64,000 nt of DNA from a virus (taxonomy: Duplodnaviria > Heunggongvirae > Uroviricota > Caudoviricetes), in IMG/VR virus record IMGVR_UViG_3300044675_001501, positions 64,001 through 128,000 of that record; one strand, written 5' to 3'. The notes beneath the pieces were generated by a model, which saw only the letters and a list, made by a program, of their open reading frames with translations, ran no database searches and was not told the origin of the DNA. The position numbers and the translations under genes were made by a program. Positions 54,447 through 56,261 of the stretch are shown here, in pieces; within the stretch, counting starts at the first letter, position 1; the number at the start of each line of letters is the position of its first letter.

Positions 54447-54512
54447 CAACAGGATGTCTTTTTGCGTTTTACAATTACAAGTTGTATGCATTTTGATTGC
54501 TGCAAACATCCT
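54447..54512 (-). ncRNA. Scaffold RNA A, displays a Thr(TGT) anticodon stem-loop
   Basis: AGGATGT-TT-GCAGCAA..TACAA-CTTGTAA-TTGTA..ACATCCT-GTTG. Confidence 0.75.
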
Positions 54513-54517
54513 AAAAC

Positions 54518-54594
54518 TGGTAGCGGGAGCAGGAATCGAACCTACCTCATTCAAGCGTATGAAACTTGCTAGTTACCCAGAACTATATCCCGCA
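54518..54594 (-). tRNA. tRNA-Met/Ile2(CAT), 1:72 mismatch
   Basis: Loop TTCATAC, CCA. Confidence 0.85.
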
Positions 54595-54708
54595 ACAAAA
54601 TCGTGCTATGTTCAACCTTGCAAGTAGAACTCTCGTCGCAGTCTGAGAAGCATCCATCCTAGGAAGGAGAGGCTATCCTGCCATACCGTAAAGCGACGGT
54701 ATGCATCT

Positions 54709-54783
54709 TGGCGGTCCCAAGGGGTAACGATCCCCTTCTTTATGCGTGACAGGCATACGTGCGTCCATGAACACTTTGGAACC
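54709..54783 (-). tRNA. tRNA-Asp(GTC)
   Basis: Cloverleaf, G73, CCA. Confidence 0.9.
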
Positions 54784-54909
54784 AGATTCATTTTGTTGAG
54801 TACTCTGCACTATATGCCTCGCTCAACAGCTTTACTCGAGTTTACTGTTTATTGCTTCGGTTACATAACGCTTGATCATGCCTCTGTGCTTACAAAGCAC
54901 TCAACAAAA

Positions 54910-54985
54910 TGGTGGAGGATAACGGGATCGAACCGATGACCTTTAGCTTGCAAAGCTACTGCTCTCCCAGCTGAGCTAATCCCCC
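54910..54985 (-). tRNA. tRNA-Ala(TGC)
   Basis: G3.U70, CCA. Confidence 0.95.
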
Positions 54986-55110
54986 ACGGTGTTCGGTCAG
55001 CCCCACCAGCGCTACCGAACAGATGTCGTTCTCACAACGAATCCCCACATCATGCCTCAAGCGTAGTTTTCGACCCACGACTTAGAGAGGACTTATCGAA
55101 CTATACAAGT

Positions 55111-55139
55111 ATTATATAACAAGTAGCATTTAAAGTCAA
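55111..55139 (-). promoter_or_regulatory. sigma70-type promoter
   Basis: TTGACT-17-TATAAT. Confidence 0.85.
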
Positions 55140-55690
55140 GCATGCAATCTACTGTTTTTTGGCACACCTGACAATAGATACTCCATTTGGTCAGCAAGAA
55201 TGTTGCGATTCAACAGAATCATATGTTCGTAATGATTTGGTTCATATGGAACATACAATAATTTCATGTTGATGTCTTCAAGCAATCTCCGACCTTTCTT
55301 CATGTTACATGGTTTACATGCAGTAACTACGTTAGTCCAAGTATCTTCACCACCTTCACATCTAGGTATGACATGGTCACGAGATAGATGCGGTGTAGTA
55401 AAATGATCACCACAGTAAGCACAAACATGTTTGTCTCTAGAGAACAAAGATTTGTTAGTTAGCACAACTCTACCAAACTTTTCGATAGAGAATCCGCTAC
55501 CCTTTACCGCAATGATAGATGGTGTTGATAACACAGACTCAACCCCATGGTTGTTTACACCACCACGGAATGTTGCTAATGTTTCACCGAGAGACCACAC
55601 AACCATGCCTTTCGCATGATACGTGATAGCATCTTCAAAATTTATCCATCTTCTAGGTAAACCAGAAGCGTCTAGTGCTAGGACATTCAT
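55136..55690 (-). CDS. HNH endonuclease
   Basis: CAYCG..DHVIPRCEGG..NVVTACKPCNMKK. Confidence 0.9.
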   Translation of the reverse strand: MNVLALDASGLPRRWINFEDAITYHAKGMVVWSLGETLATFRGGVNNHGVESVLSTPSIIAVKGSGFSIEKFGRVVLTNKSLFSRDKHVCAYCGDHFTTPHLSRDHVIPRCEGGEDTWTNVVTACKPCNMKKGRRLLEDINMKLLYVPYEPNHYEHMILLNRNILADQMEYLLSGVPKNSRLHA

Positions 55691-55725
55691 CTCATCTCCT
55701 TGTTCCTCTTAAAGAAAATATTTAT

Positions 55726-55800
55726 TGGTGGTGATAGTAGGATTCGAACCTACGATAACTTCCGTATGAAGAAAGCGCATTACCACTTTGCTATATCACC
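55726..55800 (-). tRNA. tRNA-Met(CAT)
   Basis: Cloverleaf, CCA. Confidence 0.9.
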
Positions 55801-55852
55801 ATGGTTGCTGATTACTTATCCTACTATACGCCATCAGCAAAGGCGAGTTCTT

Positions 55853-55928
55853 TGGGGTGTCCTATGGGGAACGATCCCATACTATCGCTTTCACAGAGCG
55901 AGGTGCGAACCTCTACACTAAGGACACC
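55853..55928 (-). tRNA. tRNA-His(GTG)
   Basis: G-1:C73, CCA. Confidence 0.92.
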
Positions 55929-56041
55929 ATAGATTCGAAAACTAACAAGGAACTGACTATTACATGATGCCGAAGTCATTACCACATCAAACCCTTGCTA
56001 AACTCTTTTCAGAGACGGATCGTTTCTTTCCGTTTTATTTT

Positions 56042-56116
56042 TGGCAGGGATGCTAGGATTCGAACCTAGTCTAGTTGAGTCAAAGTCAACTGTGCTCGCC
56101 GATACACTACACCCCA
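56042..56116 (-). tRNA. tRNA-Gln(TTG)
   Basis: Cloverleaf, CCA. Confidence 0.9.
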
Positions 56117-56122
56117 ACAGCT

Positions 56123-56198
56123 TGGCACCCCATGAAGGAATCGAACCTCCACCACGACGTTCGTAGCATCGTATGATTATCCATTTCACCAATGGGGC
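56123..56198 (-). tRNA. tRNA-Arg(ACG)
   Basis: Cloverleaf, CCA. Confidence 0.92.
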
Positions 56199-56202
56199 AA
56201 TA

Positions 56203-56261
56203 CAACAGGATTCGCTTTTGCTTTATTTCCAGTAAAGTTATTTGTATGCTGAAAGAATCCT
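56203..56261 (-). ncRNA. Scaffold RNA B, displays a Ser(GGA) anticodon stem-loop
   Basis: AGGATTC-TT-TCAGCAT..CTTTA-CTGGAAA-TAAAG..GAATCCT-GTTG. Confidence 0.75.

What the first reader, a model, noticed from the sequence alone, without database searches (positions are those of the whole stretch)
54447..56261. Two minimal RNAs (59 and 66 nt) that present only an anticodon stem-loop (Thr UGU; Ser GGA)
Seen: RNA A carries UACAA-CUUGUAA-UUGUA, with the same loop as the intact tRNA-Thr at 53164. RNA B carries CUUUA-CUGGAAA-UAAAG; no Ser-GGA tRNA is encoded in the window. Both are perfect 5-bp stems with 7-nt YU-NNN-AA loops held on the shared scaffold through A-rich linkers. Inference: these are anticodon decoys that could titrate host anticodon nucleases or modifying enzymes.
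Basis: partly seen in the sequence, partly recalled or inferred. Interest (0 to 1): 0.72.

Follow-up and report, generated by a model that had tools for sequence, protein, structure and literature searches.

The report
Phage Y-like RNAs displaying anticodon loops
Two tiny RNA genes in a lake phage's tRNA cluster are real members of a widespread, apparently undescribed family that joins a constant "handle" (probably gripped by the phage's Ro60-like ring protein) to a bare tRNA anticodon loop, most plausibly as bait for host enzymes that cut tRNAs; that function is untested.

Summary
Observation confirmed. A (54447-54512, minus) and B (56203-56261, minus) carry 5-bp stems with 7-nt loops (Thr UGU, Ser GGA). 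The genome has no Ser-GGA tRNA. Both are short members of a six-copy family here (7-bp end stem plus CAGCA); two copies abut a DUF2828/DUF7788 gene whose model matches Ro60 (Z 19). In related viral loci, 75 of 161 short relatives carry a perfect anticodon stem-loop (2.6 expected). The stems covary and the anticodons swap, with a bias to Lys-UUU, Thr-UGU and Ser. So the "no homologue" refutation fails. Caveats: the stems are AU-rich and lose to other folds in naked RNA (pair probability 0.12 in A, about 0 in B), and stable RNA, protein binding and decoy activity are unshown. Best reading: Ro60-like particles presenting anticodon bait against host tRNA nucleases (about 0.5). Recruiting a modifying enzyme is the main rival. 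These work like Y RNAs but fail YrlA membership. I found no paper describing them. This scan noted the family before on other DNA (39 notes). The lab phage Bas63 carries the protein and the handle.

The parts
54447..54512 (-). RNA A: handle (7-bp terminal stem + CAGCAA) carrying a Thr(UGU) anticodon stem-loop; starts 5 nt after the CCA of tRNA(CAU) 54518-54594
   Evidence: 21 homologous loci by blastn
54470..54486 (-). anticodon stem-loop of A (A31-U39, loop CU-UGU-AA), flanked by a possible 3-bp extension helix
56203..56261 (-). RNA B: same handle carrying a Ser(GGA) anticodon stem-loop; fills the spacer between tRNA-Val (56268-56342) and tRNA-Arg (56123-56198)
   Evidence: 20 homologous loci, identical in L061; a relative's contig joins the two tRNAs without it
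56221..56237 (-). anticodon stem-loop of B (loop CU-GGA-AA)
57382..57480 (-). RNA C: same handle replacing the acceptor stem of a D-arm/anticodon(UCC)/T-arm body; the nearest relative L061 has UCU
57582..57699 (-). RNA D: same handle on a circularly permuted tRNA (anticodon-like arm, T arm, loop-closed acceptor, D arm), YrlA-like order
   Evidence: Rfam YrlA 37.3 bits, E 3.6e-7, below gathering 69
47903..48007 (-). RNA E: same handle, ends directly before the ribosome-binding site of the Ro60-like gene
48020..48240 (-). RNA F: same handle (variant stem) enclosing about 200 nt of hairpins
   Evidence: lead from e1-5387642, checked
46481..47905 (-). DUF2828+DUF7788 protein (474-aa ORF; likely start GTG 47890): Ro60-like helical-repeat + vWA ring with invariant DxSxS MIDAS; presumed partner of the RNAs
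53164..53239 (-). intact tRNA-Thr(UGU), same loop as A but C31-G39 stem
53075..58033 (-). tRNA array (25 ARAGORN tRNAs) in which A-D are embedded on the same strand
58076..58104 (-). near-consensus sigma70-type promoter upstream of the array (11/12 match; candidate only)

Best explanation
A and B are the minimal members of a phage family of Y-RNA-like non-coding RNAs. Steps: (1) They are co-transcribed with the tRNA array and released when the flanking tRNAs are matured (inferred from position: 5 nt after a CCA end; B ends 4 nt before the next tRNA). (2) The terminal stem plus unpaired CAGCAA is bound by the phage's Ro60-like DUF2828/DUF7788 ring protein, which protects the RNA and holds the weak hairpin (inferred from co-occurrence and fold). 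(3) The variable part is a bare anticodon stem-loop under selection for shape and anticodon (shown by comparison). (4) The particle offers this loop as a non-translating bait that occupies host anticodon-directed nucleases or toxins, while the phage's real tRNAs, with altered stems, keep translation running (inferred). My odds: real RNA genes with anticodon-loop cargo 0.9; partner of the Ro60-like protein 0.8; nuclease bait as the main role about 0.5 overall.
For: Hairpin enrichment 75/161 vs 2.6. Loop-anchored, pairing-blind counts: Thr-UGU set 49/55 stem cells paired vs 30.9 shuffled, Lys 39/40 vs 27.8, 0/2000 shuffles. A-type alignment: 4 of 5 anticodon-stem pairs and 4 of 7 handle pairs change on both sides, 98% paired vs 32-42% when slid. 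Anticodons swap in an otherwise constant frame (UGU/UUU/UCU/GCU; GGA/UGA/GUA/GUU/GCA). [quoted passage not shown] Cargos keep the E. coli-like U36-A37-A38-U39 (thrU, lysT) more often than phage tRNAs: Lys 22/23 vs 16/52, Thr 22/26 vs 27/74; in the same locus A31-U39 is in 17/19 Thr cargos vs 3/19 cognate tRNAs. Protein: top 13 Foldseek hits are all Ro60; VIA Z 19.3, 395 residues, rmsd 4.2 to phage phiLo Ro60. 66 of 81 sequences around the gene hold a handle; all 3 complete genomes with a true handle found independently encode the protein. The handle occurs beside the gene in 7 of 9 cultured-phage regions plus Milchi and Aeh1 as blanks. Bas63 gp130, 40% identical, is a counter-defence gene (PMC11482910).
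Against: No expression, end-mapping, binding or rescue data. The hairpins are unstable in free RNA; stems are 23% G+C vs 60% in tRNAs, and this AU bias could partly explain A31-U39. Counts are inflated by kinship: on unique 17-mers the U39 contrast is p=0.006 for Lys but p=0.17 for Thr. The full AriB site UAAUC is not enriched and A lacks the CNG stem motif that OLD needs. The Ser-GGA set alone covaries weakly (28/35 vs 24.5, 47/2000 shuffles) and B's stem does not resemble E. coli serW. About a third of short members have no canonical loop (55/161), and the short Bas63 members lack YU-NNN-R loops. The defence that gp130 counters (Ppl) is proposed to attack DNA, not tRNA. A stoichiometric bait that is cleaved is a poor inhibitor unless it binds tightly or resists cutting.
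Confidence: 0.5

Rival explanations
1. Adaptor or sponge for a host anticodon-loop reader that is not a nuclease: the loop tethers or titrates a modifying enzyme (t6A37 by TsaBCDE for A, i6A37 by MiaA for B) or an anticodon-reading synthetase, shifting tRNA modification or charging in the phage's favour, as a Y RNA tethers PNPase to Ro60.
For: 67 of 75 cargos read U36-A37-A38 (51) or A36-A37-A38 (16), the t6A and i6A signatures from established knowledge, vs 874/1827 phage tRNAs. It explains Ser GGA/UGA, Tyr and Cys loops, which seryl-tRNA synthetase would not read. Bare stem-loops are known MiaA substrates (my own knowledge).
Against: Within the U36 class the set is strongly skewed to Lys-UUU and Thr-UGU (41 of 51), with few Ile/Met/Arg/Ser-GCU, which a modifier sponge would not need. 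t6A enzymes generally need more than the stem-loop (own knowledge). Depleting modifiers would also hurt phage translation.
Confidence: 0.22
2. Ordinary Y-RNA role: the handle gates or stabilises the Ro60-like ring or tethers a host exoribonuclease (RYPER-like); the anticodon loop is a remnant of tRNA ancestry or merely a compact cap.
For: Longer members carry larger tRNA pieces (C, D; 28 permuted and 7 acceptor-less types), so reduction from tRNA is plausible. PhiLo Ro60 with its RNAs binds and dampens PNPase (PMC12135203). Many members lack a canonical loop.
Against: A remnant would not keep U33, purine 37, a 7-nt loop and compensatory pairs while its stem is rewritten to AU-rich sequence unlike the phage's own tRNA, nor favour a few anticodons.
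Confidence: 0.15
3. The loop reads codons: the particle enters stalled ribosomes or pairs with mRNA codons to sense or modulate translation at Lys/Thr/Ser codons.
For: The loops use wobble-legal anticodons (almost never A34); the phage also encodes a tmRNA.
Against: No acceptor end or elbow for EF-Tu delivery; a 50-kDa ring on the stem would hardly fit the A site (inference).
Confidence: 0.07
4. DNA-level or processing-only elements: spacers that guide tRNA maturation or recombination and are then degraded.
For: About half start within 15 nt of an upstream tRNA (84/163); B is cleanly absent in one relative; no RNA evidence was obtained.
Against: Covariation of two separate helices, a fixed internal motif, copies outside tRNA arrays next to the Ro60-like gene (E, F; P100, BUCT-ZZ01), and anticodon bias.
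Confidence: 0.06

Closest known systems
Bacterial and phage Y RNAs YrlA/YrlB with Ro60 (Rsr) (Rfam RF02553; Chen et al. 2014, PMC4201824)
   Same: Small RNAs closed by a 5'-3' stem with a conserved 5' motif, several per genome, same strand as and near a Ro60-fold gene, carrying tRNA mimicry; family member D has the YrlA T/AS/D order.
   Different: Motif is CAGCAA, not GNCGAA (0/271); the partner is DUF2828/DUF7788, with no Pfam TROVE hit; YrlA mimics the elbow and acceptor and lacks an anticodon arm, whereas A and B are only an anticodon arm; 59-66 nt rather than 80-130.
Thermus phage phiLo Ro60 with Yrl1/Yrl2 (PDB 9KOP, 9L5Y; PMC12135203)
   Same: Best structural match of the partner protein (Z 19.3); phage-encoded Ro60 with upstream RNAs.
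   Different: 18% identity; RNAs use a CGAA motif; the paper has no mention of anticodons.
Bas63 gp130 (Felixounavirus; PMC11482910) and Listeria phage CKA15_055 (PMC12282133)
   Same: Same protein family (gp130 40% identical); both papers guess that nearby RNAs are Y RNAs; I find four handle RNAs in Bas63 and three in P100.
   Different: Neither paper identifies the handle RNAs or any anticodon cargo; Bas63's short members have non-canonical loops.
Nuclease-resistant phage tRNAs that counter PARIS and OLD (PMC12409363, PMC12445682)
   Same: [quoted passage not shown]
   Different: Those are full, chargeable tRNAs that replace cut host tRNAs by altering the stem; A and B cannot be charged and tend to keep the host-like 31-39 pair.
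Dictyostelid Class I RNAs (Rfam RF01414; PMC7919456)
   Same: 42-65 nt, short terminal stem, conserved motif ending ACAGCAA right after the 5' arm, CUG(U) end, variable interior; the best Rfam match for both A and B.
   Different: Only 16.9 and 20.4 bits (gathering 41.5; E 0.43 and 0.047); the model also rings weakly in 8 of 14 control genomes; eukaryotic; no anticodon cargo or Ro-like partner reported in that paper.

Membership tests
tRNA | cloverleaf with acceptor stem/CCA, D and T arms | tested here: not met
   No ARAGORN or Rfam tRNA call at A or B even at E<=10
tRNA anticodon arm (what it works like) | 5-bp stem, 7-nt loop, Y32-U33, purine 37, conserved with compensatory change | tested here: met
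   thermodynamically weak
YrlA-type Y RNA (RF02553) | GNCGAA Ro-binding motif near the 5' end | tested here: not met
   0 of 271 elements and none of A-F; CAGCAA stands in that position
YrlA-type Y RNA (RF02553) | tRNA-like T / acceptor-stem-loop / D module | tested here: not met
   absent in A and B; present in sibling D at 37 bits, under gathering 69
Y RNA (broad) | 5' and 3' ends pair into a stem with a conserved 5'-strand motif | tested here: met
   7-bp covarying stem + CAGCA
Y RNA (broad) | encoded on the same strand near a Ro60-fold gene (within about 4 kb in Chen 2014) | tested here: inconclusive
   same strand; E and F abut the gene, but A and B lie 6.5 and 8.3 kb upstream
Y RNA (broad) | stable RNA bound by the Ro60 protein | not testable with these tools
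   only assembled contigs of relatives were available
Ro60/Rsr protein (46481-47905) | helical-repeat ring closed by a vWA domain with MIDAS | tested here: met
   model pLDDT 80; 13 Ro60 hits E<=1.2e-4; Z 19.3 over 395 residues; invariant D280-x-S282-x-S284, T352, D384
Ro60/Rsr protein (46481-47905) | Pfam TROVE domain / sequence similarity to solved Ro60 | tested here: not met
   only DUF2828 and DUF7788 in 42/42 members; no phmmer hit to PDB Ro60
Dictyostelid Class I RNA (RF01414) | score at gathering threshold; short stem + 11-nt motif | tested here: inconclusive
   architecture and ACAGCAA/CUG ends align, but 17-20 bits vs 41.5
Anticodon-nuclease decoy (functional class) | binds or inhibits the nuclease and rescues growth or plaquing | not testable with these tools
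   only anticodon bias and U39 retention are indirect support

The most novel reading that the evidence does not exclude
A modular phage counter-defence platform: one Ro60-like protein loads interchangeable RNAs whose single-base-swappable anticodon loops act as RNA inhibitors of tRNA-targeting immune nucleases, the RNA equivalent of sponge proteins; the same handle may be ancestral to the unexplained Class I RNAs of social amoebae.
Probability: 0.4. Interest if true: 0.9.

Novelty: new variant of a known kind. Interest (0 to 1): 0.7.

Why it matters
tRNA cleavage is a common endpoint of bacterial immunity, and the published phage answers are resistant tRNAs and repair enzymes. A dedicated, non-chargeable anticodon mimic on a protein-bound handle would be a third strategy. 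It would also give a function to DUF2828/DUF7788, found in 706 cultured phage records and annotated only as RNA-binding, and would extend Y-RNA mimicry from the tRNA elbow to the anticodon. It is directly testable: E. coli phage Bas63 has the protein, four handle RNAs and a knockout phenotype, and AriB, OLD and HepS assays exist.

Tried and rejected
Rfam at gathering thresholds: no family for A or B. Free-energy folding: does not recover the anticodon hairpins; z about -1.6 (one 17-mer was off by one base). phmmer against PDB: nothing; the Ro60 link needed a structure model. RNA evidence: two metatranscriptomes held only 6-9% of the words, as contigs of relatives, which cannot show ends or levels; not used as support. 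Listeria phage CKA15's very abundant non-coding region (26,236-26,727, PMC12282133) lies outside the stretch that holds the handle RNAs (25,214-25,832), so it is not evidence for their expression; the other two regions have no coordinates in the text. Pattern scan of bacterial genomes: 120 hits, mostly chance, none beside a DUF2828 gene, no anticodon cargo seen; this one narrow pattern does not exclude cellular members. Three complete viral genomes without DUF2828 among the pattern hits were chance matches without a stem; three true-handle records without the gene are incomplete (30-71%). Exact AriB site UAAUC: not enriched. No handle found within 12 kb of the gene in Milchi and Aeh1 with my scan. 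CRISPR-repeat reading (GTTTTAG start) rejected: no spacing, covarying ends, no array. Alignment A3 was mis-gapped and not used for pair counts. Five literature searches found no description of the RNAs; subscription journals are not covered.

Full report
Context. The window is bases 64001-128000 of a 169,497-base virus record, a T4-like freshwater phage with a permuted betaproteobacterial-type tmRNA and 26 ARAGORN tRNAs, 25 of them in a minus-strand array at 53075-58033.

Observation. Both elements are present as described. A (54447-54512) has a 5-bp stem with loop CU-UGU-AA at 54470-54486; B (56203-56261) has loop CU-GGA-AA at 56221-56237. Each starts 5-6 nt after the CCA of an upstream tRNA, and B ends 4 nt before tRNA-Arg. 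No Ser-GGA tRNA exists in the genome. One correction: the hairpins are not the predicted fold of the free RNAs. Forcing them costs 0.9 (A) and 5.2 (B) kcal/mol, with pair probabilities of about 0.12 and 0, whereas the real tRNA-Thr arm folds at -4.3 kcal/mol.

The shared handle. A repeat search linked A and B to two more elements, and a genome scan found the same frame (7-bp terminal stem, then unpaired CAGCA, 3' end CUGUU) in C (57382-57480; D, anticodon and T arms without acceptor), D (57582-57699; permuted tRNA, Rfam YrlA 37.3 bits, E 3.6e-7, under threshold) and E (47903-48007). E and F sit directly before a 474-aa ORF (46481-47905) with DUF2828 and DUF7788, PHROG 850 'RNA-binding protein'. 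It has no sequence match in the PDB, but its AlphaFold model (pLDDT 80) matches Ro60: the 13 best Foldseek hits are all Ro60 structures and VIA-align gives Z 19.3 over 395 residues to phage phiLo Ro60 and 16.3 to Xenopus Ro60, against 12 or less for lone vWA domains. The MIDAS residues are invariant in 42 homologues.

Homologues. 80 viral loci fetched by the protein and 120 by a handle pattern gave 271 unique handle elements, 161 of them 75 nt or shorter. 75 of the 161 have a perfect 5-bp stem with a YU-NNN-R-N loop, against 2.6 +/- 1.6 in dinucleotide shuffles; 106 with one mismatch allowed, against 21.5. Seven is the only enriched loop length. To avoid selecting on pairing I anchored on the loop alone: Thr-UGU 49/55 cells paired vs 30.9 shuffled, Lys-UUU 39/40 vs 27.8 (0/2000 each), Ser-GGA 28/35 vs 24.5 (47/2000, weak, partly register ambiguity in U/A runs). 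On a 13-sequence alignment of A-like members, 4 of 5 anticodon-stem pairs and 4 of 7 handle pairs change on both sides. Anticodons swap within a constant frame: the A subfamily shows UGU, UUU, UCU and GCU; the B subfamily GGA, UGA, GUA, GUU and GCA. About a third of short members lack a canonical loop.

Link to the protein. 66 of 81 sequences around the gene hold a handle. Of records found by the RNA pattern alone, all three complete genomes with a true handle encode the protein; the three complete ones without it were chance matches. The protein is in 706 cultured phage records, and handles lie near it in wV8, Bas63, P100, RSP15, DLP6, nt-1 and BUCT-ZZ01, but were not found in Milchi or Aeh1. 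Bas63 gp130, reported as Ro60-like and needed against the Ppl defence (PMC11482910), is 40% identical to the window's protein. Binding itself is inferred.

What the loop is for. Cargo anticodons are biased: Lys-UUU 21, Thr-UGU 20, Ser-GGA 8, with Lys/Thr/Asn 45/75 against 197/1827 phage tRNAs in the same loci. These are the reported targets of AriB (PMC12409363); Thr-UGU is also the OLD target (PMC12445682) and a secondary HepS target (PMC13043305). Cargos keep the E. coli-like A31-U39 and U36-A37-A38-U39 where the phage's own tRNAs often deviate: Lys 22/23 vs 16/52, Thr 22/26 vs 27/74; in this genome A has A31-U39 and tRNA-Thr has C31-G39. That is the pattern expected if real tRNAs evade and mimics attract. 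Against over-reading: on unique 17-mers the Thr contrast is not significant (p=0.17; Lys 0.006), the stems are AU-rich anyway, the full AriB site is not enriched, A lacks OLD's CNG motif, and B's stem is unlike E. coli serW. Also 67/75 cargos carry the U36A37A38 or A36A37A38 signature of t6A and i6A enzymes (enzyme specificity from established knowledge), which fits the modifier rival and explains Ser-GGA better. The cargos do not simply fill gaps in the tRNA set: 18 of 19 Thr loci also hold the tRNA, though only 2 of 9 Ser-GGA loci do.

Expression. Not shown. Two metatranscriptomes held only contigs of relatives. One contig joins tRNA-Val and tRNA-Arg flanks without B, which most likely reflects a relative lacking the module. 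The abundant non-coding region mapped in Listeria phage CKA15 does not overlap its handle RNAs.

Comparison. They work like Y RNAs but are not YrlA: no GNCGAA in 271 elements, no T/D module in A or B, and a non-TROVE partner. The best Rfam match for both is, weakly, Dictyostelium Class I RNA, whose described architecture (PMC7919456) is the same; the score is far under threshold and this remains a lead. My searches found no paper describing the handle or its anticodon cargo. Earlier notes of this scan report the family in at least 37 genomes; I treated them as leads and the numbers above are my own.

Verdict. Real feature; new variant of the Ro60/Y-RNA kind; anticodon mimicry well supported by comparison; nuclease-decoy function plausible (about 0.5) and untested. 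Interest 0.7.

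Noticed in passing
window 56702-56790 (-): tRNA-Tyr(GUA)-like RNA with acceptor stem, CCA and a perfect anticodon arm but no D arm and an odd T arm; missed by ARAGORN and Rfam; identical in L061 and L001. The genome has no other Tyr tRNA.
   Followed up: partly
window 54340-54440 (-): Just 3' of RNA A: a Shine-Dalgarno, a 6-codon mini-ORF and a long hairpin before tRNA-Lys(CUU); conserved in 27 loci, more widely than A itself.
   Followed up: partly
window 54789-54911, 56793-56873, 56345-56535, 54990-55130 (-): Further structured spacers in the array without the handle (long terminal stems, several hairpins); possibly other ncRNAs.
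   Followed up: no
window 54709-54783, 54518-54594 (-): tRNA-Asp(GUC) is found by ARAGORN but not Rfam, and tRNA(CAU) scores under Rfam's threshold; atypical loops.
   Followed up: no
window 30363-30771 (-): Permuted two-piece tmRNA of the betaproteobacterial type, hinting at the host group.
   Followed up: no
window 55136-55690 and 53604-54167 (-): An HNH endonuclease and a 2OG-Fe(II) oxygenase gene lie inside the tRNA array; the HNH gene is followed by its own near-consensus promoter at 55139.
   Followed up: no
L324 (Bas63, record 82069-82910) and L201 (wV8): Four unannotated handle RNAs between the tRNAs of Felixounaviruses, one a permuted tRNA mimic; two overlap small annotated reverse-strand ORFs that are probably spurious.
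   Followed up: partly
L010:2879-2980, L011:96-195, L085: Some handle RNAs carry a GC-rich cargo with a T-arm and a GGCCCGC-type hairpin unlike tRNA parts; others 160-200 nt multi-hairpin cargos.
   Followed up: no
G008 (record behind L186): The DUF2828 gene is split into two pieces about 1.1 kb apart, perhaps by an intron or mobile element.
   Followed up: no
L331 (Aeh1) annotation: The DUF2828 protein is noted as similar to an Arabidopsis hypothetical protein, so plants have relatives whose RNA partner is an open question.
   Followed up: no
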